A stretch of DNA of 64,000 nucleotides from a phage, in assembly GCA_027468165.1 (NCBI GenBank), contig GCA_027468165.1_3951.1. One strand, written 5' to 3'. This document shows, piece by piece, positions 25,800 to 60,947 of this stretch; positions within the stretch are counted from its first letter, which is position 1; the number at the start of each line of letters is the position of its first letter. The notes beneath the pieces were generated by a model. That model searched no databases and was not told the DNA's origin. It saw nothing but the letters and a program-made list of their open reading frames with translations. The position numbers and the translations under genes were made by a program.

Positions 25800-26356
25800 T
25801 CAGTGTACTTCAAGCCAATTTTTACCAACTTTACCAGTACCAGTTACAAGCGTTTCCTCCTTAAGCCCTAAATTTCTTGACGCTTGACCATACATCCAGT
25901 CAATTACTGCTTTAACATCCTGCGTCATGTCTTCTGGGCACTCCCAACTATTCTCATCGTGATATGCTAAAAGCAATCTAGCGCCAATAGCTGGTTTTCG
26001 ACCATTCAACTTTGTAAGACCCTCTTCACAAGTTCTTCTACAAGCAAGGTTGATGGCTTCATTCTGAACCTGACTTTCAGAACCCATAAGCAAATAATTC
26101 AATAACTTATGTGGAGATTTACACCACAACCAAGCTCCAGCAACCTTTACAAACCCTCCTTTAGAGATTGCGGCAGTCTTACCAAATACCTCTTCAAGAG
26201 CCTTCTTAGTAGCTTTGAAGTCTGCTTCTAAATTATCCAGCAGCTTCTTAATTTTAGGGAGACGTACAAAGTATGTTTGCTTAGTTAAAGCACCCTCCTC
26301 AGTTGTAGATGCTTTAATCGTCTTAGCAAATTTCTCATCGCCAGCCCCGAACAATA
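25800..26356 (-). CDS. DNA polymerase (family A), exon 2 (C-terminal part)
   Basis: LFGAGDEK (end of motif B), AYHDEN (motif C) and C-terminal ...KNWLEVH match Pol I/T7-type polymerases; frame is open upstream of the reported start. Confidence 0.75.
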
Positions 26357-27157
26357 CATCTGGTCAATACACTCGCAAGGTGTACCAGTTCTCTTATGAA
26401 CTTCTCCGCATTTCTACGGAGTGTCGGACTATATCACGTAGCAGTGATGCTACCGTTGCACTTGGGAATGGTCATTAGCTTACCACCCTACTCTACTCAG
26501 TTCATACGTTAAGTATGCCTTTCGATAGTCTCTGAACGTTTCTCTGTTAGGAATCTCTATAGTTATGTTATTTACTTAGGTAGTCAATTGCTCTTTGCAT
26601 ATTATCAACGCTATCTGCAAGCAACCCCAAAGCTCTGTTGCAATTGTGGCATAACATACCTCTTACCTTTCCGGTTTTATGGTCATGGTCAACAACAAGT
26701 TTAGCCTTGTGTCGTGAACCATTCATGATAAAACCTTCACCGCCACAAATTTGACATTTGTAATCACAGTCACGGAGTAGAGCTTCAACCTCTTCTCTTT
26801 CCAATCCATATGTTCTTAGGTAGTAATTCTTAACTCTACCTTTCTCACCGCAATGTGACGAACAATAAACTTGCCTTGCTGTTCTCGGCATGAACACCTT
26901 CTCACAACTAGGACATTTCTTAGTAAGAACCCTGTGTTCTGCCCTTCTGTCAAACTTTAATACACAACTTCTGCACCGTTTCTGATTGTATTGGTATGGT
27001 TTAAACTCCGTACCACACTCAGTGCATAATCTCTCTTCGTAACCTGCCATTGTCTCTCTCCTTGTTTTAGGAGTCCTAACAGAGACTTCGCTGCTGATTA
27101 CCATATCTTTACAGACTTAGGCTTCCAGCAATTCACAACGTTTTACATGCGCCACTG
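26357..27157 (-). mobile_element. Group I intron (about 801 nt) interrupting the DNA polymerase gene and carrying an HNH endonuclease ORF
   Basis: 5' exon ends in U paired to intron GCGCAU (P1); intron ends in G; R-like GTTCAGAGACTA and S-like GATATAGTCC elements (minus strand); exon lengths sum to 2700 nt in frame. Confidence 0.65.
26568..27050 (-). CDS. HNH homing endonuclease (intron-encoded)
   Basis: Cys-rich zinc-binding region plus VVDHDHKTGKVRGMLCHNCNRALG HNH motif; start at ATG after AAGGAGA RBS. Confidence 0.8.
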   Translation of the reverse strand: MAGYEERLCTECGTEFKPYQYNQKRCRSCVLKFDRRAEHRVLTKKCPSCEKVFMPRTARQVYCSSHCGEKGRVKNYYLRTYGLEREEVEALLRDCDYKCQICGGEGFIMNGSRHKAKLVVDHDHKTGKVRGMLCHNCNRALGLLADSVDNMQRAIDYLSK

Positions 27158-29300
27158 ACGCATAAATGCCATTTTTGGCTTTCTTACGACCTTTACTAAT
27201 TTCTTGAAGAAGACTTGCATCCTGTGTAGCTCGACATGTCAAGATGTCTTCCTCTTTATTAAGACTGAAGTAGATACTATTTAAAGTATGTGCATCAGTT
27301 CCTGAGTACACCACGTACAAGTCATTTTCCGAATCATAATGCAAATACTTGTCAATCTCTGGGTTTAGATACTGGTCAAAATGTTTGCAATAATATCTAC
27401 CATCCTCTTGTTTGACAAACTCAACCTCTTCTTTACCCTCTGTCACTGCTTTGGTGAACTCTTTATCACCCATAAAGTTACACAGCAGTACAAGTTGCGC
27501 GCTATTCATATCTGCTGAAACAATATTAGTTCCTTCTTCACAAGTCCAAACTTCCCTCATAGGTGCTCCATAGACAGCAGCACCAGACGGTACGTTTACA
27601 ATACCATATTGTGTCATACGTCCAGTTGAAGTACCAAATACCATTGCACCAGCACTAAGGCGACCATCTGGACGAATCTGGTTCAACCAACCTTTTTCAT
27701 CATCCTTTGAGTTCTCAATAGTTCTGCGTCGGTGCATCAAAGTATAGTACTTAGCAATCTTCTGTCCAAGCTCACCTTCAATCGTATCATAAGATGATTC
27801 AGTAAGTTTTGGTGAAGTCCTAATCAGACAAGGTTCAAGCAAATCTGTGTACTTCTTCACAGACCAGTTATGCTCAATGTACTGGACACCTTCGTGTTCA
27901 ACATAGCTCAAACCACACCGTTCCACCATCTCATCCCACTTAGGATGCTTTGTAATCATCTTTTTGTTGTCTTTGAAGCGACAAACCTTAACAGGACGAC
28001 CATCAGAGTCTTTCTTATAGTTCCAGTCATCTGGAATCCAACCAACTGATTTCAAGTAGTCTTTAACAACTGCTACCTGAGTCATACGAGAAACTTCGAA
28101 CTCAATTGGTGTATATGGTGCATCAATCAAACCTGTGTAGCGACTTGACTCAAGTTCAAAGTGGTTAACAACATGGCTGTTATAGTACTTCACAGTTTTA
28201 ACTGTTTTTACTGGCTTCCAGTCTTTGCACTTCTTACCAATCTTTGCATTCAACTCATTGCAAATTGCACGAGCATCCTTCATTGCTACAAAACCTTCCT
28301 TGTACTCTTCACCAGTTACGGAGTTGGTTGGTGTATAGCAATTCCGCTTTTCAATGTTAAAAATCTTTGTAGTTGGCTTACCAAATGGCTTGATTTCATA
28401 TGTCTGCATCTCACCGTTACGTACCTGCTGACGATACTTTGTCTTAGGGTACTTGGTAATTCTCTTCAGTCCATCTGCATGGCCGAATGCTTCAACATAC
28501 TCATTCCAAGCTTTTGCAAACTCTTCTCCAGTGACTTTGCCTTTGGTCTTAATAGTTGGAGGAAGATGTGGTTCAACTTCTGAAGCAAGCTCATTAGTCA
28601 ACTTGTCAAGTTCCTTTACATGGAACTCCATAAGCTCTTTATCAGCTTTCCAACCATTGATAGCTTGTTGACTCATCCAGAAAGATGTTTCTTTAGCTCG
28701 CATGTAGGTTTCATAGGTGTCTACGCCACACTTCTTCAGCTTGAGATATTCATTATCCAGTGCACGTTTAGTTTTGGCGTTAATACGGATATCTTCTACA
28801 ACACGAGTGAAGATTTCTGCATTCCACACACCCCAATGTTCAATCTCTGGTTTACGTACACCAACACGAGCACCCCATGCTGCCAAGCCATGAGCACCTT
28901 TATAGCCCTTTGGAGTTGGTCTATCCATCCACTGAACACGAGACTGGATAAGAGAATCCTGAAAGAAATTACTCCACGGCTTACACTTTGGATTATCAAA
29001 GTTCCACAAATCAGGTGCAATGTGATTGAAAACCCACCAGTCATACCCTAAACCATTATGGATGCAAAGTCGTTTTGCCTTTAACGCAAACTCAATACCT
29101 TCACGCAAACCACCCTTAATGTACTTGGTATACTTGTGACCGAGGATAGGCTCATCTGTAAAGACCCATACAGGTGGCTCTTCATCGTCAGATTTATAGT
29201 CTGCGAAAGCCATTACGTGCACTTTAGTGAACTCAAGGAGTAAACCATCAGTTTCTGTATCACCAACTAAATGTAAGTTTTTAAAATCTACGTTTTCCAT
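27158..29300 (-). CDS. DNA polymerase (family A), exon 1 (3'-5' exonuclease and N-terminal polymerase part)
   Basis: N-terminal exo motif VGDTETDG; ends in RKKAKNGIYA (start of motif B) then reads into an intron stop; start at ATG after GAGGGAG RBS. Confidence 0.75.
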
Positions 29301-29557
29301 TTTTACTCCCTCTAAAATCATTAACCACATACATTACTGCAAAAAATTATAAAAAGCAAGTTGACAATGTACTTGACAAGGTGTTAATCTTTGCGAAGTG
29401 GGTTTTTACTTAAAAGGTTACTTAACAGTTTAACTATACAGATACTTTAAAACTCTTAAAAGATTATTTAATAGCTTTTAAAAAGCTTTAAAGTATAACG
29501 TATAGAATACGTTAAGATAAAAGATTAAAACTTAATAGTTACTTAAAAGAGGCTTAC

Positions 29558-35181: not shown

Positions 35182-36222
35182 ATGGAGAAGTATACGCTAA
35201 CAAAACTTCCCGATTCAGTTACACATGTCTTTATTGACTCTGACAGTATTGCCTATAAAGGTGCTTGTGTAGTTGAGAAAGCAAAATATAAATATGTCAA
35301 TAAACTCACAGCAGAAGAATCTGAACCATTTGATAATGCAAAAGATGCTGCAAGATGGTTAGCAGACCAGAGAATCTTTGTAGAAGAGCTTGGCCTAACA
35401 TTTGATGAAGATGAATGGGAAAGACAGACTTGGAAAGAAGCTAAGAGTGAAAAAGAAGCTATCATGGCTACTCAGCAGGTTCTTCAGGAATGGCTTAAGG
35501 TTGTTGGTAAAGAAAGAACTTGGGTAGGTTATTTAACAGAGAAGGGTGTGCATAAACATAAAGACGTTAAAGGTCTTGAGCACCAATATCAAGGTAACCG
35601 TAAAGATGCTGTCACACCAACACACTTAGTTGCTTGTCGTGAATATCTTTTATCCAGACCAGAGTTCAAACTCTTAAAGGGTGGATTCGAAGCTGATTCC
35701 ATCGTAATTGCTAAAGCTGAAAAGATGGGTAAGAAAGCTGCTCTTATGAGTATTGACAAAGACCTTCGACAAGCTGAAGGAACCTATTGTATTGATATGA
35801 CTTATGAAAAATCACCACTAATTTTTATCGCTGATAATAACGTTGGTGATATCTGGGATTGTCCTATCAAATCAAAACCAAAAGCTGCAAAAACAGTTGG
35901 TGTAGGTTTTAAATTTTTGTGTTATCAGGCTGTTGCTGGTGATAATGCAGATAACTACTTCGGTCTTAAAGGTGCTGGAAAAGTAGCTGTGATGAATGCT
36001 TTAGATGGTAAAGAGACCTATAAAGAGTGTCTTGACGCTATCTATGAACTCTATGCTAAAAAAGAGTCTTATACCTATGTATCATGGGATGGACAGACTG
36101 TTACAAAAACACCATTAGAGTTAATGGAGCAGCATTTCTGGGTAGCATATCAAGAGAGAAATCCAAAAGATAATTTCTCTTTTAAGAAATATAATTGGGA
36201 GCCGTGTATGAATGAAGATTAA
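35182..36222 (+). CDS. 5'-3' exonuclease (FEN/RNase H family)
   Basis: N-terminal FIDSDSIAYK (cf. DG.S..YR) and helix-3-turn-helix-like AVAGDNADNYFGLKGAGKVA; ATG after GGAGAG RBS. Confidence 0.6.
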   Translation: MEKYTLTKLPDSVTHVFIDSDSIAYKGACVVEKAKYKYVNKLTAEESEPFDNAKDAARWLADQRIFVEELGLTFDEDEWERQTWKEAKSEKEAIMATQQVLQEWLKVVGKERTWVGYLTEKGVHKHKDVKGLEHQYQGNRKDAVTPTHLVACREYLLSRPEFKLLKGGFEADSIVIAKAEKMGKKAALMSIDKDLRQAEGTYCIDMTYEKSPLIFIADNNVGDIWDCPIKSKPKAAKTVGVGFKFLCYQAVAGDNADNYFGLKGAGKVAVMNALDGKETYKECLDAIYELYAKKESYTYVSWDGQTVTKTPLELMEQHFWVAYQERNPKDNFSFKKYNWEPCMNED

Positions 36223-36709
36223 AGGATTTGGCAATTGTCCTACCTATGGTCATTGGGTATCTTTATGTGGGGAAGTTGACCCCACTAAACATTTTGGTTT
36301 TGTCTACCTAGTGTACTGCAAAAAGACTGGACAGTATTATTTGGGTAAAAAACAGCTTAATAGTGTGACCAAAAGAAAAGTTGCTGGCAAGACTCGGAAG
36401 AAGGTAGTCACTAAGGAGAGTGATTGGATGACTTATGAGACTTCTTCTGAGTATATTAAGAAAGATATCGAGAGCTTTGGAAAAGAATTTTTTGACTTTT
36501 ACATTATCCAAACCTACTACACGAAAGGTGGCCTAGTTTATGGTGAAGCAAACCTCCAACATAAATTCGATGTAATGACAAAAAGGATTGACTCTAAGCT
36601 CAGACTCTTCTACAATGCCAATATTGCAGCAATTAAGTTTATTACTAAAGAAACTTATGAAGATGCTGAAAAAAGAATCCATAAGATAATGAAAGCAAAC
36701 TGTGCTTGA
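36212..36709 (+). CDS. GIY-YIG family endonuclease (putative free-standing homing endonuclease)
   Basis: GFVYLVYCKKTGQYYLGKK fits the GIY-(10 aa)-YIG pattern. Confidence 0.45.
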   Translation: MKIKGFGNCPTYGHWVSLCGEVDPTKHFGFVYLVYCKKTGQYYLGKKQLNSVTKRKVAGKTRKKVVTKESDWMTYETSSEYIKKDIESFGKEFFDFYIIQTYYTKGGLVYGEANLQHKFDVMTKRIDSKLRLFYNANIAAIKFITKETYEDAEKRIHKIMKANCA

Positions 36710-36730: not shown

Positions 36731-36961
36731 ATGTTTAACAAAAGTAAAGCTGTGAGTCATGTAGCAAAGGTTGACAGCAAGATTGAAGAACTTGAGCGCA
36801 TTCTTGCAAATGCCAGAGAGTCAATAATTAAAGAAGTTGAAGCTGTTGAATCTCAAATGCAGCACCTAATGCTTAAACGTCAAGAGTTACGTGAGCATCT
36901 GGAATATATTGAAACACGAGAGCTAAAAGTTAACAGATTTTTAAGGAGTCCGAATGTTTAA
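36731..36961 (+). CDS. Small coiled-coil protein (hypothetical)
   Basis: ATG after GAGAGAG RBS. Confidence 0.3.
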   Translation: MFNKSKAVSHVAKVDSKIEELERILANARESIIKEVEAVESQMQHLMLKRQELREHLEYIETRELKVNRFLRSPNV

Positions 36962-37709
36962 CTCAAGAGAATCAGTAAAAAACTGGAATCTTCGTTGCGG
37001 AAACACCCAAAAGCAACCTTACAGTGATGAGTATTGGGAATCTTTGAAATCCCAGTCTCTGTGTATGCTTGAAGAAGCAAAAGAGCTTGTAAAAGCAATT
37101 GAAGAGAAAGACCCCATTGAGACACTGGATGCTCAGGCAGATTTGCAATATGTTCTTGACGGTTTGATTTACCTGTCACAACATGACCATAACGGTGCTA
37201 TGAAAGCTGTTTGCCATAATAATGACCTGAAGTATACAGACGACTATGAAGAAGCTTTAAAGCGTCTTGCAGATGTTGAGAAGCGTACTGGTCAAGAGTG
37301 TATCATTAGAATGTCAGTGGTTGATGGTAAAGAGTGGTATGCGATTGTCCGTGCAGCCGATGGGAAGATTATGAAGCAATCAAATCTCCCTAAAGTACAG
37401 CTTGGTGAATACATTGTAGAGCTTGAAAGCCAAGAACTTTTTGTGGTAGTATCTGAGACATGCGTTATCTGCAAAGGTATTGTAGGTAGCTTAAAGGATT
37501 TGGGTGTAGATGGTTTTGTAGAAGTTAATCCAATTACCTCTAAAGCAGATAAAGATTTCTGTAAAGAGAATGGACTATGGATTGCAGATATTGTCTACTA
37601 CGATGGTGAGCAGTTCCATGTAACCTCATACCCGAAACTGAACTATGATGCTAATAACCTGAAGTGCTGGTTAAAAGGGGTTGGTTATAATGGATTCACA
37701 GAACATTAA
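36954..37709 (+). CDS. Hypothetical protein
   Basis: 251 aa ORF. Confidence 0.4.
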   Translation: MFNSRESVKNWNLRCGNTQKQPYSDEYWESLKSQSLCMLEEAKELVKAIEEKDPIETLDAQADLQYVLDGLIYLSQHDHNGAMKAVCHNNDLKYTDDYEEALKRLADVEKRTGQECIIRMSVVDGKEWYAIVRAADGKIMKQSNLPKVQLGEYIVELESQELFVVVSETCVICKGIVGSLKDLGVDGFVEVNPITSKADKDFCKENGLWIADIVYYDGEQFHVTSYPKLNYDANNLKCWLKGVGYNGFTEH

Positions 37710-47360: not shown

Positions 47361-47894
47361 ATGTATCTGTCAAATCTGAAACGTTCGGTTGCAATGTCAG
47401 TTCTAAGACTCAGCTTTGAGGAACGTCAAGAGTTCATTGACACCCACCAATATGACCCTTCTAACTCTAATCACATGATTCTCTGGAATCGTGAGAGTAC
47501 TCGTGAAAGAGCACTATTCCGCTATTACCCACACTACACTATAGATAACCTGTATGAATGTTTTGTTGTGAAGAACACCATTACAGTTCTCAATAAGCTT
47601 TGTAGATACACAGGTAACCAGTCCTTCACATTAGGTCACCACAAGCCTGTTACAAAAGGTGGTGAGCATCACTGTACAAACTGGTTTATCCAAACTAAAG
47701 CTGATAATCAGAAGCAAGGAGATAACCTCCTAAGTACTCCTAAGATGACCTATGAAGAGCAAGAGAAATATATCAAAAATAATATGCCAGATGTGCTTGA
47801 CAACAACTATACAGATTTGGCAATATCTCTCCTGTTGAAGTTCGAGACAGTTTATAGGGCAACTTACAATGGCAGTAACAAACGTAACTTTTGA
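47361..47894 (+). CDS. HNH endonuclease-like protein (putative free-standing homing endonuclease)
   Basis: LGHHKPVTKGGEHHCTNWFIQTKADNQKQGD resembles an HNH core (His pair, Asn, conserved Gly). Confidence 0.45.
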   Translation: MYLSNLKRSVAMSVLRLSFEERQEFIDTHQYDPSNSNHMILWNRESTRERALFRYYPHYTIDNLYECFVVKNTITVLNKLCRYTGNQSFTLGHHKPVTKGGEHHCTNWFIQTKADNQKQGDNLLSTPKMTYEEQEKYIKNNMPDVLDNNYTDLAISLLLKFETVYRATYNGSNKRNF

Positions 47895-47909
47895 TTGAGA
47901 GAGAAAACT

Positions 47910-48365
47910 ATGATTTTTTGCAGCTTCCAAAAAAGAATTATTGAGATTCTATACAATAAGTTTGGGACAGATAACACATTTGACTCAAATGAAGCTATTG
48001 AAGCCCTACAAGAAGGAAGTGATTATATCAAAAAACAGCCAATAGCAAACATCAGGTACTACTTGACTCAGATGAGAAAGTGGGGTGTGCTCATCGTGGT
48101 AGGACAGATTAAGCAACAAGGGAGGATGCTCATCAACCAATTAAATAGGGGTTTTATTGAGAAGCACATTCAGCTAGAATATTTACTTAAAGAGCCACGA
48201 AAACAACGTGAAGAGCAGCAAAAAGACTTAAGTGGTGGTGTAGATGTGTCTCCAGACATAAAATTCTTTATTGGTGAGTTGATGTTTGATACACTCCAAG
48301 ATGCTGTTGAACACTGCAAAAAGTATATTATCAAAGTAAAACGTGCAAAAATTATTTGGGAGTAA
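47910..48365 (+). CDS. Tandem paralog family member A1 (unknown function)
   Basis: About 60% identical to A2 at 48787; shares N-terminal ILY.KFG.DNTF and C-terminal EA.EHCKK..I.VK.AK.IWE with all four members. Confidence 0.5.
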   Translation: MIFCSFQKRIIEILYNKFGTDNTFDSNEAIEALQEGSDYIKKQPIANIRYYLTQMRKWGVLIVVGQIKQQGRMLINQLNRGFIEKHIQLEYLLKEPRKQREEQQKDLSGGVDVSPDIKFFIGELMFDTLQDAVEHCKKYIIKVKRAKIIWE

Positions 48366-48369
48366 TAAC

Positions 48370-48765
48370 ATGTTTGAGCTTCTGAAGGTTCTGTATATAA
48401 ATTTTGGCTATGACAAAACATTTTCTGGCTCACAACTAACTAAGGTTTTTAATAAATATCTACCACATGCTTCAATCAGGGATAAAGCTAATTGGTCTCA
48501 CAGATTACGTAAAAGTGGATATCTTAGTGTTGTTGGAGCGACAGGCTTTAATAATGAGTATCTTATGAGAATCAATGAAAGCAAAGCTAAAAATGTGCTT
48601 TTAAGTTGTAATGACCATCAACAAAAGGATGAAGAGGTTAGTGTAGGTGAAGTAGGGTACTTCATAGGTGATATACACTTTACCAGTATGGAGGCAGCAG
48701 TTGAGCATTGTAAGAGAACGGTTATCCAAACAAAAAGAAAGCGTATTGTTTGGGAAGAAGTTTAA
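48370..48765 (+). CDS. Tandem paralog family member B1 (unknown function)
   Basis: Starts MFELLKVLYINFGYDKTF; pairs with B2 at 49256; shares the C-terminal motif. Confidence 0.5.
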   Translation: MFELLKVLYINFGYDKTFSGSQLTKVFNKYLPHASIRDKANWSHRLRKSGYLSVVGATGFNNEYLMRINESKAKNVLLSCNDHQQKDEEVSVGEVGYFIGDIHFTSMEAAVEHCKRTVIQTKRKRIVWEEV

Positions 48766-48786
48766 ACATTTGATTAGGAATACACT

Positions 48787-49251
48787 ATGATTTTTTGCAA
48801 TTTACAGAAGCACGTAATAGAGATTTTATACAAAACCTTCGGGACAGAAAACACTTTTGACTCTAACGAAGCAATTGACGCATTAAGAGAGAATAGCCTT
48901 TTTATACGAGGCCAGTCAATCAGCAATACCCGTGGGTATCTAACAATGTTAAGACAGTCTGGTGTACTGCTGACTGTAGGGCAGGTAAAAAGCAAAGGTA
49001 GACTAAGTATTAATCAATTAAATCGAGCCTTTATGGAGAAGCACATACAACTGTCAAGGATGCTAGACAATACGCGTGAAGAGTTGGGGAGTTCACAAAA
49101 AGCAAGTTCACCTGATGTTAAAGATGTGGATGTACAACCTGACGTAAGATACTTTATTGCTGATGTTATGTTTAAAACACTCGATGAAGCTATTGAGCAC
49201 TGCAAAAAGCATCTTATTAAAGTTAAACATGCAAAAGTTATTTGGGAGTGA
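48787..49251 (+). CDS. Tandem paralog family member A2 (unknown function)
   Basis: MIFCNLQKHVIEILYKTFGTENTFDSNEAI... paralog of A1. Confidence 0.5.
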   Translation: MIFCNLQKHVIEILYKTFGTENTFDSNEAIDALRENSLFIRGQSISNTRGYLTMLRQSGVLLTVGQVKSKGRLSINQLNRAFMEKHIQLSRMLDNTREELGSSQKASSPDVKDVDVQPDVRYFIADVMFKTLDEAIEHCKKHLIKVKHAKVIWE

Positions 49252-49255
49252 TGCT

Positions 49256-49636
49256 ATGATTGAACTGTTAAAAGTCCTATATAAAAAGTTTGGTTATGAT
49301 AAAACTTTTACTTGTTCACAGATACGTAGTATCCATGACAAGGAATTTCCAAATGTATCCAAGACAAACAAGTCAACTCGGTTCAATCGTCTTCGCCAGA
49401 GGGGTTACATTAAAATAGTTGGATACAAGAATAACTCTTTCGAGTATGTAATGCAGATTAACAGAGAAGTATCAAGTAAAATACTTGAAGAGCCAACAGC
49501 CGAAGAACAAAAGATACAAGATGGTGAAGTTCGCTTCTTTGTGGAGAAGGAAAGTTTTGGGTCAATAGATGAAGCTATCGAGTATTGTAAAAAGAACATT
49601 ATCCAGATAAAGCGTAGAAAGGTTATTTGGGAATAA
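49256..49636 (+). CDS. Tandem paralog family member B2 (unknown function)
   Basis: MIELLKVLYKKFGYDKTF... paralog of B1; ATG after GGGAG RBS. Confidence 0.5.
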   Translation: MIELLKVLYKKFGYDKTFTCSQIRSIHDKEFPNVSKTNKSTRFNRLRQRGYIKIVGYKNNSFEYVMQINREVSSKILEEPTAEEQKIQDGEVRFFVEKESFGSIDEAIEYCKKNIIQIKRRKVIWE

Positions 49637-49651
49637 AGAGAGAGAGAAACT

Positions 49652-50533
49652 ATGAAAACATCTATCCGTGTTACAGTTCATTCACCAACTAAAGGGACTC
49701 ATGAAGAAGAATTTAACATCATCCAATTCCCTTCTGGTGAGATTGGTGGACACTTTTCACCAGAGTTTGTTGATTTTACTGCATATGCAGCATCATCTAT
49801 CAACAATGTGATTATGATTGTAAAAGGTTATGATAAAGATACATTGTTTGCTGTGGCACTTGCTAAAGAGGCTGTGGACAACTTAGTACCTCATAAGTTT
49901 GCTATGAAGACTGTTATCTTTTACTATTTACCAAATGCACGTTATGACCGTCACATGTTTAAAGGTGATGCAGCAGCTTTGAAAGTGTTTGCACAACAGG
50001 TTAATGCAATGGGTTTTGATGCAGTCTGTGCAGTTGACCCTCACAGCTATGTGCCAGATAACCTGTTTAACTGCTTCCAGAGCATTCCTCAAAAGGAAAT
50101 TGCAGTCCACTATGCAAATGACCCACTGGTTGATTACTTAGTAGCCCCAGATGCAGGTGCTTCTAAGAAGATTGCAGAAACTGCTAAAGAAGTGGATAAA
50201 CCATACATCACAATGTCTAAAGTACGTAACCTTAAGACTGGTGAAATTACTGGTATGCGAATCCTTGATGATGTTGATTTGACAGATAAAACCGTCATGA
50301 TTCTGGATGATATCTGTGATGGAGGTCGTACCTTTATAGAAGCAGCTAAACATCTTCGCGAAGCAGGTGCAAAACGTGTGGAACTCTATGTAACACATGG
50401 TATCTTCTCTAAAGGTGTTGAAAACCTTCTTGACAATGGTATTGACCATATCTACACTACAAACTCTTTAGGGGAAGCTAAAGACCGTGGTTTAGCACAT
50501 TATAGCCAAGTTACTGTAGCAAACCTTGATTGA
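49652..50533 (+). CDS. prs: Ribose-phosphate pyrophosphokinase family protein (Prs-like; possibly NARP1 ADP-ribose pyrophosphokinase)
   Basis: PRPP-binding-type motif VMILDDICDGGRT; directly upstream of a NadV-like gene. Confidence 0.65.
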   Translation: MKTSIRVTVHSPTKGTHEEEFNIIQFPSGEIGGHFSPEFVDFTAYAASSINNVIMIVKGYDKDTLFAVALAKEAVDNLVPHKFAMKTVIFYYLPNARYDRHMFKGDAAALKVFAQQVNAMGFDAVCAVDPHSYVPDNLFNCFQSIPQKEIAVHYANDPLVDYLVAPDAGASKKIAETAKEVDKPYITMSKVRNLKTGEITGMRILDDVDLTDKTVMILDDICDGGRTFIEAAKHLREAGAKRVELYVTHGIFSKGVENLLDNGIDHIYTTNSLGEAKDRGLAHYSQVTVANLD

Positions 50534-50544
50534 AACTTTATAGG

Positions 50545-50565
50545 GGGGCTTCAAAGCCCCATTTT
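50545..50565 (+). terminator. Hairpin/weak terminator
   Basis: GGGGCTT-CAA-AGCCCC hairpin followed by ATTTTG. Confidence 0.35.
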
Positions 50566-50581
50566 GAGAGAGATTAAAAAG

Positions 50582-52363
50582 ATGACTAAATCACTTTATG
50601 CAGTACCAGCAGGTTTAAACGCGGACGCTTACAAATCTGGCCATGTTTACCAATACCCTAGTGCAACAGATTACTTGATGTTCAACCTGACACCACGTAG
50701 TGATAAATGGTTTAATAGTCCTTTAGCAATTGATGGTGTAGTGGCTTTTGGTATTCAACGTTTTGTTAAAGATTACTTGATAGACCACTGGAACGCCACT
50801 TTCTTTGAACGTGATAAAAAAGAAGCAATTGACGAAATCTTAGAAGTCATGAATGGTGTTCTGGGTAAAGATGCTATCGGTCGAGAGCATTGGGAAGCAC
50901 TTCACGACTTAGGTTATCTACCAGTTGAAGTATACGCTGTAGAAGAAGGTACAGTTGTACCTATGCGTGTTCCAATGATTGTATTCCAGAACACTGTTTC
51001 AGGTTTCCATTGGGTAGCGGGATATCTGGAAGATGCTTTCTCTGCTGAGATTTGGAAGGCTTGTACCATTGCAACTATTGCATTGCACTACAAACGTATC
51101 TGTAAGAAGTGGGCTGACCTCACTTGCAACAATGACTCACATTTGCCTTATCAGTGCCATGACTTTGCTATGCGTGGTATGTCTGGCTTTACTGATGACG
51201 CATTTAACGCTGTAGGTCACTTAACAAGCTTTAAAGGGACTGATAGCTTCCCTGCGGTATATACAGCTAAACGCATTTATGGACAGTCATACCCAATCTC
51301 TGATATTGGTAGCTCTGTACCAGCCACTGAACACTCTGTCATGTGTGCAAACATTGCTTGGGAAGGTGGTAATGAGTTGATTGAAGAAGAAAGACGCTTT
51401 AAAGGTGAGTTGCAAACCTTCCGTCGTTTCTTAACAGAAACTTACCCAACTGGTATTGCAAGTGTTGTTTCAGACACTTATAATTTCTGGAGAACTGTAT
51501 CAGAAATCTTACCAGCACTTCGTAAAGAGATTATGGAACGTGACGGAAAACTGGTAATTCGTCCTGACTCTGGCGACCCTGTACATATTGTCACAGGTTA
51601 TAAAGCAATCCACTTAGAGTGCGCTAAAAAAGCTTATTACGAACACCTAAGCAAGCTGGAAGCCAGCGACACAAAGTTGAATGCTGTTCTGAACATGAAT
51701 CTTGAAGACATTCACTATATTATGGCTGGGTGGTTACGTACAGAAGGCTATGAAATGGTGGTTGACAGAGAAGACTTTGAAGTAGCTGATACAGTGCTTC
51801 TGAAAGATGCCTACATCAACGGCTCTGCAAACGTTGTAACACGTCCTGTAGCAGAGATTGATGGAGCTATTAAGACCCTGTATAACATCTTTGGGGGGAC
51901 TATCAACTCTAAAGGCTTTAAGGTACTGGATGAGCACATTGGCCTTATCTATGGTGACTCTATCACGTTGGAACGTGCAAACGAAATCCTGAAGCGTTTG
52001 TATGAAATGGGTTTTGCAAGCTCTAACGTAGTGTTTGGTGTAGGTTCTTACACTTACCAGTACATGACTCGTGACACCTTTGCATTTGCTGTCAAAGCAA
52101 CTCTTGCAAGCATTGGTGGTAAAGAGATTATGCTTGCAAAAGACCCTAAAACAGATAGCGGTGTTAAGAAGTCTGCTTTTGGTGGTGTAGCACCTATGTG
52201 GGATGGTGATAAGCTGAAAGCTGTAGATGGCTATGGATTCCAGAGCTTTGCAGATGTGCTTGAACATCCAGCTTGTGCTTTACGTTTAGTCTTTAGTGAC
52301 TCTGAGCAGTTCGGTTACACAACTCTTGGTGATATTCGAAATAATATTGACAAGCAGCTTTAA
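50582..52363 (+). CDS. nadV: Nicotinamide phosphoribosyltransferase family protein (NadV/NAMPT-like; possibly NARP1 Namat)
   Basis: About 594 aa ORF paired with the Prs-like gene; assignment rests on size, pairing and general NAMPT-like character, not a verified alignment. Confidence 0.55.
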   Translation: MTKSLYAVPAGLNADAYKSGHVYQYPSATDYLMFNLTPRSDKWFNSPLAIDGVVAFGIQRFVKDYLIDHWNATFFERDKKEAIDEILEVMNGVLGKDAIGREHWEALHDLGYLPVEVYAVEEGTVVPMRVPMIVFQNTVSGFHWVAGYLEDAFSAEIWKACTIATIALHYKRICKKWADLTCNNDSHLPYQCHDFAMRGMSGFTDDAFNAVGHLTSFKGTDSFPAVYTAKRIYGQSYPISDIGSSVPATEHSVMCANIAWEGGNELIEEERRFKGELQTFRRFLTETYPTGIASVVSDTYNFWRTVSEILPALRKEIMERDGKLVIRPDSGDPVHIVTGYKAIHLECAKKAYYEHLSKLEASDTKLNAVLNMNLEDIHYIMAGWLRTEGYEMVVDREDFEVADTVLLKDAYINGSANVVTRPVAEIDGAIKTLYNIFGGTINSKGFKVLDEHIGLIYGDSITLERANEILKRLYEMGFASSNVVFGVGSYTYQYMTRDTFAFAVKATLASIGGKEIMLAKDPKTDSGVKKSAFGGVAPMWDGDKLKAVDGYGFQSFADVLEHPACALRLVFSDSEQFGYTTLGDIRNNIDKQL

Positions 52364-52377
52364 AAGTATATGATAAG

Positions 52378-52400
52378 AGGCTCCTACGGGAGCCTTTTTA
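52378..52400 (+). terminator. Rho-independent terminator
   Basis: AGGCTCC-TAC-GGGAGCCT hairpin followed by TTTTT. Confidence 0.6.
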
Positions 52401-56594: not shown

Positions 56595-57146
56595 ATGAAG
56601 AAGTTGATTCTAGGTTTGTGCTTAATGTTTACAGCACACTTATCTTATGCAGTTGACTGCCCAGAGCTATCAATTAGTCAAAAAGTAAACATGTTAAAAG
56701 CTTACCAGTATGGTGAGAATAATATGGGTAAAGGATGGGGCATCACTCTAGCTGCTATAGCCTTACAAGAGTCAGAGTTAGGTCTGAATATGGAGAATAA
56801 AAAGACCCATGACTATGGTATCTTCCAGAATCACTTGAAGACTGTTGTAAAGCGTAACAAAATCAGCCCTAATGTGGCTAAAAAGAAACTCTTAAAAGAT
56901 TTTAACTATGCTGCAAAGGAAACACACAAAGAGCTTGAGTTTTGGACGAAGGTACATGGTCAACCAAAATCAAAGAAGACTTTACAAAAAGTTTTAGCGT
57001 CATATAATGCTGGGTATTCGTACAAAATCCCTAAAGCTAAGAAATATTCTCAGGATGTCTATAACAATATGAAAGTCATCGCTCAATGTGAATTTGCAAC
57101 AAACATTTCTAAGGTAAATCATGAAAAAATTAAGAAAGTTGGATGA
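56595..57146 (+). CDS. Secreted lytic transglycosylase-like protein (SLT domain; candidate endolysin)
   Basis: Signal peptide MKKLILGLCLMFTAHLSYA; SLT-like ES...DYGIFQ and SYNAG motifs. Confidence 0.5.
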   Translation: MKKLILGLCLMFTAHLSYAVDCPELSISQKVNMLKAYQYGENNMGKGWGITLAAIALQESELGLNMENKKTHDYGIFQNHLKTVVKRNKISPNVAKKKLLKDFNYAAKETHKELEFWTKVHGQPKSKKTLQKVLASYNAGYSYKIPKAKKYSQDVYNNMKVIAQCEFATNISKVNHEKIKKVG

Positions 57147-57816
57147 AGTACTGTGCCATGCTTACGACTTGCATCCTCATGAGTTAGGTCTTGATTCCTG
57201 TGTATGGACTCCAGAACAGTGCAGAGATTTTGAAGATACTGCAAGAGAAGTTGTATGCTCACTTGAAGAGTTCCACACATCAGAACCAATTGTGAACGTT
57301 GTGGACAAAGAGACTGGACAATCTATAGGTGTAAGACGTGACAGTTTAGTCATAGTCAATAAAGACCTTGTAGAAAAAGGTAACCTCATCTTAGCAGATA
57401 TTGATGGTGTTCTTACAAATTTTAATCACGAAGATTGCTCAACGGAATTGACTGATGGGTCATTCTCACAGTACACTAATCTTCTTGACTCTGTAAGAGC
57501 AAAACCAACGTATGTTTTTAGTATTATTGATGCAATTGCTAATCATGCTGCCATTGGACTCTTGACAGCAAGAGGTGAGTCTCAGAGAATACCTACTGAG
57601 ATGTTTTTAAGGCATAACATAGAGCATGACTACATGCTTCTTATGCGTGGTTTTGGAACTAACTCTATAAGTGCAGAAAGTTTAAAAGTTAGGATGATTC
57701 AGTCTTGCATTCTTCCTTACTTTAATATAGTATGCTTTATAGAAGATACAGAGAAGAATGTTCAGAAGGTAAACAGAATCCTTCCACACATTAAAACCAT
57801 GTTAGTTAAACATTGA
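57121..57816 (+). CDS. HAD-superfamily hydrolase-like protein (putative phosphatase/nucleotidase)
   Basis: HAD motif I-like LADIDGVLTNF. Confidence 0.4.
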   Translation: MKKLRKLDEVLCHAYDLHPHELGLDSCVWTPEQCRDFEDTAREVVCSLEEFHTSEPIVNVVDKETGQSIGVRRDSLVIVNKDLVEKGNLILADIDGVLTNFNHEDCSTELTDGSFSQYTNLLDSVRAKPTYVFSIIDAIANHAAIGLLTARGESQRIPTEMFLRHNIEHDYMLLMRGFGTNSISAESLKVRMIQSCILPYFNIVCFIEDTEKNVQKVNRILPHIKTMLVKH

Positions 57817-60161: not shown

Positions 60162-60947
60162 ATGGGTATTGTAAAAATAATCAATGGGGATATCTTCTCT
60201 GCATTTGATAAAGGTAAGTTTGATATCATTGGTCACGGTTGCAACTGTATGAACTTAATGGGTGCAGGTATCGCTGACAAGATTTCTAAACTTTACCCAA
60301 AAGCATATGAGACTGATACAGAAGTTTATCTGTATGCAGGTGGTATAGGCCACAAACCCTGTGAAAATTTACTAGGTAATTTCTCTGTAGCACGTTTAGA
60401 ACAAGGCCGTATAGCTAACCTTTACACTCAGCTTAAGACTGGTAAAGATGCCCGATACAGTGCTTTAGAGTCATCTTTGAAACAGCTTAACAGATACTGT
60501 GAAGTCAATCAGTTGAAGAAAGTTGGTTTACCTATGGTTGGTGCAGGTATCGGTGGACTAGACCCTCAAGCCGTCACAGTTATCATTAATCAGGTGATGA
60601 AGAGCGTAGATGTTTACCTGTATGTCTACGAGGCAGAGATGTACCACGAGTTACACTCAGGTTGGAATAACTACTGTGAACCAGAATACTTTGCAGGTGT
60701 AGTAGTGTTCACTGATGATGCAGTTACCCTCTTCAGACGAAGAAAAGGTAAGATACATCAAAGTAACCCTCCGGTTGAGAAGATGTCTCTAAGTAACGCT
60801 CTAGTTACCCACCTGTCGAAGAGCAATCACAGAATTGCAGTAACATTTGGCAGTGATGCAGATACATATATCTATGCAAGAACTGATGAGGATGTTAAGG
60901 AAATTTTCTCTTCACAGGAAGTTACCTTCTTAGACGCAAAGAACTAA
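60162..60947 (+). CDS. Macro-domain-like protein (possible ADP-ribose binding/processing)
   Basis: DIIGHGCNCMNLMGAGIADKI resembles the macro-domain glycine-rich motif (cf. VNAAN..L.GGGGV); weak, from memory. Confidence 0.3.
   Translation: MGIVKIINGDIFSAFDKGKFDIIGHGCNCMNLMGAGIADKISKLYPKAYETDTEVYLYAGGIGHKPCENLLGNFSVARLEQGRIANLYTQLKTGKDARYSALESSLKQLNRYCEVNQLKKVGLPMVGAGIGGLDPQAVTVIINQVMKSVDVYLYVYEAEMYHELHSGWNNYCEPEYFAGVVVFTDDAVTLFRRRKGKIHQSNPPVEKMSLSNALVTHLSKSNHRIAVTFGSDADTYIYARTDEDVKEIFSSQEVTFLDAKN

What the first reader, a model, noticed from the sequence alone, without database searches (positions are those of the whole stretch)
49652..52363. Adjacent Prs-like and NadV-like genes: candidate phage NAD+ reconstitution pathway (NARP1-type)
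A ribose-phosphate pyrophosphokinase-family gene (PRPP-binding-like VMILDDICDGGRT) is immediately followed by a large NadV-like gene, each with its own terminator. Phage Prs/NadV pairs of this kind have been shown to rebuild NAD+ from ADP-ribose and nicotinamide (ADP-ribose pyrophosphokinase plus nicotinamide ADPR transferase), countering NAD+-depleting defences. No NMNAT-type gene was seen nearby, which favours the two-enzyme route over classical salvage. A macro-domain-like ORF (60162-60947) and a HAD-like hydrolase (57121-57816) elsewhere in the window could relate to ADP-ribose handling, but that is speculative.
Basis: partly seen in the sequence, partly recalled or inferred. Interest (0 to 1): 0.65.

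Follow-up and report, generated by a model that had tools for sequence, protein, structure and literature searches.

The report
Known phage NAD+ rebuilding operon (NARP1)

Summary
ORF 49652-50533 (+, 293 aa) belongs to the Prs family. ORF 50582-52363 (+, 593 aa; the TTG at 50564 is not the real start) belongs to the NAMPT family. The window is a Felixounavirus, collinear with Escherichia phage JohannRWettstein (Bas63, MZ501086). NARP1 was discovered in that phage, as genes bas63_0079-0080.

The window's proteins are 80% (Adps) and 97% (Namat) identical to the Bas63 pair, with no gaps, the same lengths and the same neighbours.

The second protein carries the published Namat-specific adenine clamp: GSYTYQYMTRD, plus K42-W43 in the loop. 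True Nampt lacks this clamp. The protein scores 428 bits against the solved SpbetaL1 Namat and 181 bits against Xanthomonas Nampt. I found no NMNAT, Nudix or RyR gene.

Smaller corrections and additions:
- Only the second gene has a canonical terminator.
- The Macro ORF (60162-60947) is real. It is homologous (28%, E=2e-12) to the in-operon phosphatase of a Vibrio phage with the published NARP1-AP gene order, so the phosphatase step may be encoded apart from the operon. This is untested.
- Namat has an ~80-aa hypervariable insertion specific to Ounavirinae.
- An accessory four-ORF cassette sits directly upstream of adps.

The parts
49652..50533 (+). adps: ADP-ribose pyrophosphokinase (Prs-family; makes ADPR-PP from ADPR + ATP)
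   Evidence: 293 aa. 80% identical and gap-free to bas63_0079. PF00156/PF14572, TIGR01251 at 124 bits, but only 57-106 bits against the Prs equivalog models, whose cutoffs are 296-536. Prs hallmarks and the catalytic-loop K190-x-R192 are present. The start codon lies 15 nt after the upstream ORF, with a GAGAGAGAG Shine-Dalgarno-like stretch.
50545..50565 (+). Short GC hairpin plus U4 between adps and namat (weak or leaky terminator, or an RNA-stability element)
   Evidence: GGGGCU-UCAA-AGCCCC then AUUUU. dG -13.5 kcal/mol, z -1.9. Conserved in Bas63. Not called by the terminator scan.
50582..52363 (+). namat: nicotinamide ADP-ribose transferase (NAMPT-family; makes NAD+ from ADPR-PP + nicotinamide)
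   Evidence: 593 aa. 97% identical to bas63_0080. 428 bits to the SpbetaL1 Namat structures 9w5w/9w5x, against 181 for Xcc Nampt and ~143 for human NAMPT. SCH motif GSYTYQYMTRD at residues 488-498, and SCL K42-W43. Catalytic-core equivalents F195, R198, D221, H251, R327, D329 and G458-D459 are conserved in the alignment to 9w5x.
51611..51859 (+). Ounavirinae-specific ~83-aa insertion inside Namat (residues ~344-426), hypervariable
   Evidence: Absent from SpbetaL1 Namat and from all Nampt structures. Found by tblastn only in 254 Felixounavirus-type records. A shorter insertion sits at the same site in Vibrio phage K460. It holds 13 of the 20 substitutions relative to Bas63 (P=2e-7).
52375..52398 (+). 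Canonical intrinsic terminator that closes the operon
   Evidence: 10-bp stem (5 GC pairs), 4-nt loop, then UUUUUAAUUU. dG -16.6, z -3.3. Identical in Bas63.
60162..60947 (+). Macro-domain protein (orthologue of bas63_0095, 'putative phosphatase'); candidate ADPR-1''-phosphate phosphatase that is not physically part of the operon
   Evidence: PF01661 at 29.6 bits. phrog_335 'phosphatase' at 1e-110. 28% identity, E=2e-12, over the whole 148-aa in-operon phosphatase of Vibrio phage K460. The Poa1p H23-x-C-N-C...G-x-G-I-A segment is conserved. Its membership of the pathway is inferred, not shown.

Best explanation
The two genes are the NARP1 operon of a Felixounavirus.

When a host defence (SIR2-HerA/Nezha, Thoeris type I, DSR1/2, SEFIR and others) cleaves NAD+ into ADP-ribose and nicotinamide, two steps rebuild it:
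1. The Prs-like enzyme Adps (49652-50533) transfers pyrophosphate from ATP to the 1'' position of ADP-ribose, giving ADPR-PP.
2. The NAMPT-like enzyme Namat (50582-52363) couples ADPR-PP to nicotinamide. This regenerates NAD+ directly, without NMN or an NMNAT.

Namat's preference for ADPR-PP over PRPP comes from an adenine-stacking clamp. The clamp consists of Y490 and Y494 in the GSYTYQYMTRD helix, plus K42/W43 of the beta1-beta2 loop of the partner subunit.

The genes are probably transcribed from upstream with the preceding ORFs: only 15 nt separate adps from the previous ORF. Transcription ends at the strong terminator at 52375-52398.

Shown elsewhere, not here: the chemistry was shown with the SpbetaL1 enzymes. 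The in-vivo ADPR-PP signal and the anti-defence phenotype were shown with the Bas63 orthologues. Shown here: orthology, synteny, motifs and the absence of an NMNAT gene. Inferred: that this phage's enzymes have the same activities.
For: - The window is collinear with Bas63 4155-67758 at 88-96% nt identity. Bas63 is a Felixounavirus.
- Adps is 80% and Namat 97% identical to bas63_0079 and bas63_0080, gap-free and of equal length.
- In Bas63, deleting genes 79-80 sensitises the phage to SIR2-HerA and abolishes the ADPR-PP signal. [quoted passage not shown]
- An independent study found that single deletions of g79 or g80 reduce plating 1e4-1e6-fold on Sir2-HerA, and that complementation restores it.
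- The published Namat signature GS-X-phi-X-phi-X-phi-TRD, with aromatics at positions 3 and 7, is present. It is absent from Xanthomonas Nampt (GGALLQKVDRD).
- The SCL is the 'Lys then stacking residue' variant described for Bas63.
- The best PDB match is SpbetaL1 Namat at 428 bits, against 181 and 143 for true Nampts.
- Adps scores far below every Prs equivalog cutoff.
- No NMNAT or Nudix gene was found.
- The pair is conserved in about 259 phage records, and also in the distant genus Kolesnikvirus.
Against: - No enzyme of this particular phage, nor of Bas63, has been assayed in vitro. The Bas63 Adps did not purify, and the biochemistry used SpbetaL1 proteins that are much more distant from this window's proteins.
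- Adps is only 80% identical to Bas63's, with 54 of 60 changes in residues 1-180.
- No residue-level determinants separating Adps from Prs have been published that I could find. Adps membership therefore rests on orthology and gene context.
- Namat retains PRPP-to-NMN activity in vitro, so some classical salvage flux cannot be excluded.
Confidence: 0.93

Rival explanations
1. Classical salvage only. The first enzyme is a true PRPP synthetase and the second a true Nampt. Together they make NMN, which host NadR/NadD/PncC convert to NAD+. This is how the public records annotate the genes.
For: Pfam, NCBIfam and PHROG names, and nearly all GenBank annotations, say Prs and NadV/NAPRTase. Namat can make NMN from PRPP in vitro.
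Against: [quoted passage not shown] The SpbetaL1 Adps gave no product under the Prs-type assay. Namat given both PRPP and ADPR-PP made only NAD+. The window protein has the adenine clamp that Nampt lacks. The Adps score is 57-106 bits against Prs equivalog cutoffs of 296-536.
Confidence: 0.03
2. NARP2-like route: Nampt plus a phage NMNAT, building NAD+ from PRPP via NMN.
For: A NAMPT-family gene is present. NARP2 exists in other large myoviruses, such as KVP40.
Against: No NMNAT or Nudix domain appears in any unassigned ORF of 140 aa or more in the window, nor in the Bas63 annotation across the collinear region. The NAMPT-like protein carries the Namat clamp and is paired with a Prs-like gene, which is the NARP1 signature.
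Confidence: 0.02
3. Extended but dispersed NARP1-AP. Adps and Namat work as in NARP1, and the Macro-domain protein 7.8 kb downstream (60162-60947) additionally converts ADPR-1''-phosphate, the product of aRES RES-domain NADases, into ADPR. This would feed NARP1 and extend protection to aRES.
For: - 15% of NARP1 phages have a Macro-domain phosphatase (Adpp) associated with the operon. The published screen looked only within 2 genes of NARP1, so it would miss this ORF.
- The window's Macro domain aligns end to end with the in-operon phosphatase of Vibrio phage K460, whose operon reads Adps-phosphatase-Namat (28% identity, E=2e-12).
- Both proteins hit the same single NCBIfam model over the same span.
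- The Poa1p His-containing active-site segment is conserved.
- TARG1's K84/D125 dyad is not conserved: these positions are Q90 and G131 by my mapping.
- The synteny Adps-Namat...PNK...Macro persists in Kolesnikvirus.
Against: - The same Macro family occurs in 2,846 phage records, including T4-like phages that are not known to carry NARP1. It is therefore not NARP1-specific.
- Poa1p S30, which was probed by mutation (PDB 6lft), is Leu here.
- The protein has an unexplained ~100-aa C-terminal extension that the in-operon phosphatases lack.
- K460's protein is itself uncharacterised, and I could not retrieve the characterised phage Gary Adpp.
- PhageMaP's main text reports no phenotype for Bas63 g95.
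- An anti-DarT or other de-ADP-ribosylase role is equally compatible with the fold.
Confidence: 0.25

Closest known systems
NARP1 of Escherichia phage JohannRWettstein (Bas63), genes bas63_0079-0080 (Osterman et al., bioRxiv 10.1101/2024.02.11.579819; PhageMaP 10.1101/2024.10.10.617714)
   Same: Same genus, gene order, gene lengths, flanking genes (rIIA/rIIB downstream) and intergenic hairpin and terminator. Namat is 97% and Adps 80% identical. The SCH and SCL clamp residues are identical.
   Different: The Adps N-terminal 180 residues are divergent (72% nt identity). A 1.8-kb four-ORF cassette sits directly upstream here in place of bas63_0078. Neither difference suggests a different function.
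NARP1 of Bacillus phage SPbetaL1 (biochemically and structurally characterised Adps/Namat; PDB 9w5w, 9w5x; NAR 2026, PMC12774641)
   Same: Two-gene Adps-Namat operon. The catalytic core residues and the GS-aromatic-x-x-x-aromatic-x-TRD clamp are conserved. 428-bit match.
   Different: The window's Namat has an ~83-aa insertion after the RPDSGDP strand and a ~15-aa one near residue 260. Its SCL is 4 residues longer and uses K42/W43 instead of R40. No solved Adps structure was available for comparison.
NARP1-AP (Adps-Adpp-Namat) of Vibrio phage Gary (Osterman et al. 2026, bioRxiv 10.64898/2026.01.28.702374); same layout seen here in Vibrio phage K460
   Same: Adps and Namat are homologous (Namat is 42% identical to K460's). 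A Macro-domain protein of the same family is encoded in the genome.
   Different: Here the Macro gene lies about 7.8 kb and 15-20 ORFs downstream, not inside the operon. It also carries an extra C-terminal ~100 aa. Its phosphatase activity is not known.
NARP2 (NadV/Nampt + NatV NMNAT-Nudix) of Vibrio phage KVP40
   Same: A NAMPT-family enzyme used by a phage to restore NAD+ under NAD+-depleting defence.
   Different: NARP2 starts from PRPP, goes through NMN and needs an NMNAT. The window has no NMNAT, has a Prs-like partner, and carries the ADPR-PP clamp.
Cellular Prs (PRPP synthetase) and Nampt/NadV
   Same: Same folds and catalytic machinery: the N-A-R-x-D-R, D-x-H, D-D-x-x-D-G-G-x-T and K-x-R loops in Adps, and the F/D/H/R core in Namat.
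   Different: 27% identity to E. coli Prs, and far below the equivalog cutoffs. Nampt lacks the aromatic clamp. Different substrates: ADPR and ADPR-PP instead of R5P and PRPP.

Membership tests
NARP1 (Adps + Namat) | A Prs-family protein that belongs to the phage Adps clade rather than to cellular Prs | tested here: met
   80% identical, gap-free and same length as bas63_0079, one of the query sequences used to collect the Prs/Adps homologues for the published tree. Only 27% identical to E. coli Prs. 57-106 bits against Prs equivalog cutoffs of 296-536. I did not build a tree.
NARP1 (Adps + Namat) | A Namat homologue within 10 genes of adps (97% of clade members) | tested here: met
   namat starts 48 nt after the adps stop codon, on the same strand.
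NARP1 (Adps + Namat) | Namat SCH signature GS-X-phi1-X-phi2-X-phi3-TRD with aromatics at positions 3 and 7 | tested here: met
   GSYTYQYMTRD at residues 488-498. SpbetaL1 has GSFTYQYNTRD and Xcc Nampt has GGALLQKVDRD.
NARP1 (Adps + Namat) | Namat SCL loop supplies an adenine-stacking residue (third residue R, K or Y; if K or Y, the fourth residue stacks) | tested here: met
   S40-D41-K42-W43. K42 aligns with SpbetaL1 R40. The sequence is identical to Bas63, the published example of the Lys variant.
NARP1 (Adps + Namat) | Conserved Nampt-like catalytic core in Namat (SpbetaL1 F189, R192, D215, R306, D308, catalytic His) | tested here: met
   F195, R198, D221, H251, R327 and D329 align with these residues in the HMMER alignment to 9w5x.
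NARP1 (Adps + Namat) | Adps catalytic-loop lysine (SpbetaL1 K162, equivalent to B. subtilis Prs K197) | tested here: inconclusive
   K190-V-R192 aligns with the K-E-R of archaeal Prs 4twb in HMMER. K460 Adps has K-E-R. MAFFT puts E. coli K194 one column off, opposite V191. The lysine is very probably conserved, but the loop alignment is ambiguous by one residue.
NARP1 (Adps + Namat) | Enzymatic activities (ADPR + ATP to ADPR-PP; ADPR-PP + Nam to NAD+) and rescue from NAD+-depleting defence | not testable with these tools
   Shown for SpbetaL1 proteins in vitro and for the Bas63 orthologues in vivo. Not shown for this phage.
NARP2 (Nampt + NMNAT) | A phage-encoded NMNAT (NatV-type, PF01467 with or without Nudix) | tested here: not met
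   No such domain in 10 unassigned ORFs of 140 aa or more. None annotated in the collinear Bas63 region. About 23 kb of the genome lies outside the window.
NARP1-AP (Adps + Adpp + Namat) | A Macro-domain gene within the NARP1 operon (within 2 genes) | tested here: not met
   The neighbours within 2 genes are small hypothetical ORFs and the paralogue cassette. The only Macro ORF starts 7.8 kb downstream.
NARP1-AP (Adps + Adpp + Namat) | The Macro protein is a Poa1p-like ADPR-1''-P phosphatase | tested here: inconclusive
   Homologous to the K460 in-operon phosphatase (E=2e-12). The Poa1p H23 segment is conserved. However, S30 is not conserved, the nearest PDB hits are TARG1/OARD1, and the nearest NCBIfam model is DarG. 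Activity is not testable here.
Canonical ribose-phosphate diphosphokinase (Prs) | Reaches a curated Prs equivalog score | tested here: not met
   The best equivalog, NF002095, scores 106 bits against a cutoff of 296. Only the broad subfamily model TIGR01251 passes (124 against 113).

The most novel reading that the evidence does not exclude
Felixounaviruses, and Ounavirinae generally, may run a dispersed version of NARP1-AP. The conserved Macro-domain 'phosphatase' (60162-60947) lies 7.8 kb from Adps/Namat, so the published operon-proximity screen would not have seen it. It may dephosphorylate aRES-generated ADPR-1''-phosphate to ADPR and feed NARP1. If so, the fraction of NARP1 phages that can also defeat aRES would be well above the reported 15%. 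A smaller possibility is that the hypervariable, lineage-specific 83-aa insertion in Namat is a target or decoy surface in a further layer of the arms race.
Probability: 0.25. Interest if true: 0.4.

Novelty: already known. Interest (0 to 1): 0.12.

Why it matters
NARP1 matters in general. It is a virus-specific metabolic pathway that neutralises a whole class of NAD+-depleting defences, and it predicts host range in phage therapy. This instance adds nothing to that, because it is an orthologue of the founding example.

Its practical value is for annotation. About 260 Felixounavirus records, including RefSeq ones, still label these genes 'ribose-phosphate pyrophosphokinase' and 'nicotinamide/nicotinate phosphoribosyltransferase'. 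That labelling implies the wrong chemistry.

Two things here are not yet in the literature I could search:
- The Macro-domain phosphatase may complement NARP1 from a distance.
- Namat carries a hypervariable insertion specific to Ounavirinae.

Tried and rejected
- I guessed GenBank accessions for Bas63. MZ501113 was Bas35 and MZ501082 was Bas55, before MZ501086 proved correct.
- I looked for a solved Adps structure or published Adps-versus-Prs residue determinants and found none.
- I tried to retrieve Vibrio phage Gary's characterised Adpp by tblastn with the K460 phosphatase. It was not among the 45 best rows, so the link to the characterised enzyme stays indirect.
- I searched the PhageMaP text for phenotypes of Bas63 g95, g87 and g78 and found none.
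- I considered RyDEP (RyR-domain) as an accessory factor and found no such domain.
- I considered that the TTG at 50564 starts the second gene. I rejected this because it lies in the hairpin's U-tract, and ATG 50582 has a Shine-Dalgarno sequence and matches Bas63.
- I considered the internal 'terminator' at 49743 inside adps and rejected it as chance: 3 sites were found against 3.5 expected.
- I did not run the large protein-database searches or structure prediction, because orthology to a characterised system already settled the question.
Full report
**1. Observation.**
The ORF listing shows a 293-aa ORF at 49652-50533 (+) containing VMILDDICDGGRT. A 599-aa ORF follows at 50564-52363 (+).

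The first ORF hits Pfam Pribosyltran and Pribosyl_synth, TIGR01251 (124 bits, cutoff 113) and PHROG 619 'ribose-phosphate pyrophosphokinase' (5e-99). The second hits Pfam NAPRTase (6e-35) and NAMPT_N, NCBIfam NF006629 (470 bits, cutoff 405) and PHROG 448 (4e-202).

Two refinements apply.
- The second gene most likely starts at ATG 50582. The TTG at 50564 falls in the U-run of the upstream hairpin, a GAGAGAG Shine-Dalgarno-like stretch precedes the ATG, and the Bas63 orthologue is annotated from the equivalent ATG.
- Only the second gene has a canonical intrinsic terminator, at 52375-52398 (10-bp stem, U-tract, dG -16.6 kcal/mol, z -3.3). Between the genes there is a 6-bp GC hairpin plus AUUUU (dG -13.5, z -1.9). 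It is conserved in Bas63 but did not pass the terminator scan.

adps begins only 15 nt after the preceding ORF, so the pair is probably transcribed from further upstream.

**2. What the window is.**
The 2.7-kb region matches 259 phage records at 80-97% nucleotide identity. Almost all are Escherichia, Salmonella or Shigella Felixounavirus genomes. No deposited genome is identical; the best are about 95-96%.

The NARP1 preprint states that the pathway was found in the two-gene operon 79-80 of BASEL phage Bas63, JohannRWettstein. Two papers and the GenBank record confirm that Bas63 is a Felixounavirus.

I fetched MZ501086. The window is collinear with Bas63 4155-67758. bas63_0079 (882 nt) and bas63_0080 (1782 nt) have exactly the sizes and positions of the window's genes, with the small ORFs and rIIA/rIIB downstream.

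Protein identity is 233/293 (80%, no gaps) for the Prs-like protein and 573/593 (97%, no gaps) for the NAMPT-like protein.

**3. Function.**
For the Bas63 orthologues the literature shows the following:
- Deleting genes 79-80 sensitises the phage to SIR2-HerA and deepens NAD+ depletion.
- ADPR-PP (m/z 720.010) appears only with wild-type phage plus the defence system.
- Independent single deletions of g79 or g80 reduce plating 1e4-1e6-fold, and complementation restores it.
- The genes also counter the Ec86 retron and the hhe system.

The chemistry was shown with the SpbetaL1 homologues: ADPR + ATP gives ADPR-PP, and ADPR-PP + nicotinamide gives NAD+.

The 2026 structural study defines what separates Namat from Nampt. 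It is an adenine 'selectivity clamp' with two elements. One is a helix motif, GS-X-phi-X-phi-X-phi-TRD, with aromatics at positions 3 and 7. The other is a variable loop that contributes a stacking residue.

The window protein has GSYTYQYMTRD at residues 488-498. This compares with SpbetaL1 GSFTYQYNTRD, Xanthomonas Nampt GGALLQKVDRD and PDB 9ke8 GAQTYQRNTRD. Its loop reads S-D-K42-W43. K42 aligns with SpbetaL1 R40, and the sequence is identical to Bas63, the published example of the Lys variant. The catalytic core residues align as well.

Against all solved structures, the protein scores 428 bits to SpbetaL1 Namat, 181 to Xanthomonas Nampt and about 143 to human NAMPT.

The Prs-like protein keeps the Prs hallmarks and a K190-x-R192 catalytic loop. 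It is only 27% identical to E. coli Prs and far below every Prs equivalog cutoff. I found no solved Adps structure and no published residue-level discriminator. Its assignment therefore rests on orthology and gene context.

**4. Absence of an NMNAT route.**
Ten unassigned ORFs of 140 aa or more gave no PF01467, Nudix or RyR hit. Instead they showed an Endonuclease VII-type homing endonuclease, a SegE GIY-YIG endonuclease and a MazG-like PRA-PH domain. The Bas63 annotation of the collinear region lists none either. This fits NARP1 and not NARP2.

**5.
The ORF at 60162-60947 does contain a Macro domain (PF01661, 29.6 bits; PHROG 335 'phosphatase', 1e-110). It is the orthologue of bas63_0095, 'putative phosphatase'.

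A January 2026 preprint shows that aRES NADases produce ADPR-1''-phosphate, which NARP1 cannot use. It also shows that 15% of NARP1 phages carry a Poa1p-like Macro phosphatase (Adpp) associated with the operon. That screen looked only within two genes of NARP1.

Vibrio phage K460 has exactly that Adps-phosphatase-Namat layout.
- Its 148-aa phosphatase aligns end to end with residues 1-160 of the window's Macro protein (28% identity, E=2e-12).
- Both proteins hit the same single NCBIfam model, the DarG macrodomain, at about 45 bits over the same span.
- The Poa1p H23-S-C-N-C...G-G-G-I-A segment corresponds to H25-G-C-N-C...G-A-G-I-A here.
- By my mapping of the alignment, TARG1's K84/D125 dyad corresponds to Q90/G131.

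These points make an Adpp-like role plausible. Several points count against treating it as shown:
- The family is present in 2,846 phage records, including T4-likes not known to carry NARP1.
- The protein has an unexplained ~100-aa C-terminal extension.
- The K460 protein is uncharacterised.
- I could not retrieve phage Gary's enzyme.
- The PhageMaP main text gives no phenotype for Bas63 g95.

The arrangement Adps-Namat...rIIA-rIIB...PNK...Macro is conserved even in Kolesnikvirus. That shows an old shared gene order but says nothing about function.

The 'HAD-like' ORF at 57121-57816 shows HAD motif I (ADIDGVLT) and matches PHROG 3970 'polynucleotide kinase'. It looks like a Pnkp-type RNA/DNA end-healing enzyme and has no evident link to NARP1.

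**6. Differences from the characterised systems.**
- Namat carries an ~83-aa insertion (residues ~344-426) that SpbetaL1 Namat and all Nampts lack. By sequence it is restricted to 254 Ounavirinae records. A shorter insertion occupies the same site in K460. It holds 13 of the 20 substitutions relative to Bas63 (P=2e-7; 85% against 95% nt identity).
- Adps is mosaic relative to Bas63: 54 of 60 substitutions fall in residues 1-180.
- A 1.8-kb cassette of four ORFs in an A-B-A-B paralogue pattern (PHROG 29478, unknown function) is inserted directly upstream of adps. It is present in only 11 of 188 matching records.

None of these changes the functional call.

**7. Verdict.**
The system is already known, because this lineage is where NARP1 was discovered. 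Interest is low (0.12).

The most novel reading that the evidence leaves open is a dispersed NARP1-AP that uses the distant Macro phosphatase (probability about 0.25, interest about 0.4 if true).

Noticed in passing
window 47895-49636 (+); block 47874-49704: Four tandem ORFs of 135-155 aa (from the aligned Met starts; 140-159 aa as listed by the ORF listing) in an A-B-A-B paralogue pattern (A/A' 59% identical; A to B 32-33%). All end in ...EA(V/I)E(H/Y)CKK..I..K..K(I/V)IWE. PHROG 29478, unknown function, no Pfam hit. The cassette sits directly upstream of adps and replaces bas63_0078. Only 11 of 188 matching Felixounavirus records carry it, so it is an accessory cassette next to an anti-defence operon.
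   Followed up: partly
window 51611-51859 (Namat residues ~344-426): A lineage-specific (Ounavirinae) ~83-aa insertion in Namat, not mentioned in the text of the structural paper. It is the most variable part of the protein: 13 of 20 substitutions relative to Bas63, and most relatives are only 80-90% identical here. Vibrio phage K460 has a shorter insertion at the same site.
   Followed up: partly
window 49652-50191 vs 50192-50533 (Adps): Adps is mosaic relative to Bas63. Residues 1-180 hold 54 of 60 substitutions (72% nt identity), while residues 181-293 are nearly invariant (90% nt identity). This suggests recombination between Adps alleles or fast evolution of the N-terminal domain.
   Followed up: partly
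relatives of window 50534-50581 (e.g. Shigella phage Z31, Salmonella phage Mushroom, Escherichia phages skuden and VpaE1): In a subset of Felixounaviruses, the match to this two-gene query is split into two pieces spanning about 470 nt more than in the window, and an annotated HNH homing endonuclease gene lies under the match. I did not check exactly where that gene is inserted. The window lacks it.
   Followed up: no
window 25800-29330 (- strand): The DNA polymerase gene, a single 909-aa CDS in Bas63, appears split here into ORFs 27117-29330 and 25800-26354. An ~800-bp window-specific insert carrying a 178-aa Endonuclease VII-type ORF (26568-27104, PF02945 7.6e-20) separates them. This is possibly a mobile intron or homing-endonuclease insertion.
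   Followed up: partly
window 60162-60947: The Macro-domain protein has an extra C-terminal ~100 aa (residues ~160-261) with no family match. The in-operon phosphatase of K460 lacks it, but the Kolesnikvirus orthologue is about the same length (260 aa). The same Macro family is present in 2,846 phage records, including T4-like phages.
   Followed up: partly
PHROG 12872 (hit by both window proteins): One 547-position PHROG profile matches Adps with its first half (profile positions 48-224) and Namat with its second half (236-534). This suggests that fused Adps-Namat proteins exist in some phages, a Rosetta-stone type of support for the functional link.
   Followed up: no
window 47361-47894: Orthologue of Bas63 gp77, which PhageMaP reports as a counter to the Ec67 retron and describes as GIY-YIG-like. 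Pfam gave only a weak DUF7167 hit here.
   Followed up: no
window 36954-37709 and 36212-36709: A 251-aa ORF with a MazG-like PRA-PH pyrophosphohydrolase domain (PF01503, 26.6 bits), and a SegE-type GIY-YIG homing endonuclease (PF19835, 9.5e-27).
   Followed up: no
L005 (Vibrio phage K460) and L008 (Erwinia phage vEam_PM_21): rIIA/rIIB lie within a few kb of NARP1 in three unrelated contexts: upstream in K460, and downstream in Felixounavirus and Kolesnikvirus. PhageMaP reports that Bas63 rIIA/rIIB counter qatABCD, so this region may be a conserved anti-defence neighbourhood.
   Followed up: no
public records GU169904.1 (Staphylococcus phage SA1) and MG065668.1 (Campylobacter phage A126): Records labelled as Staphylococcus and Campylobacter phages match this Felixounavirus region at about 90-94% nucleotide identity. 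They are probably chimeric or contaminated deposits rather than real host jumps.
   Followed up: no
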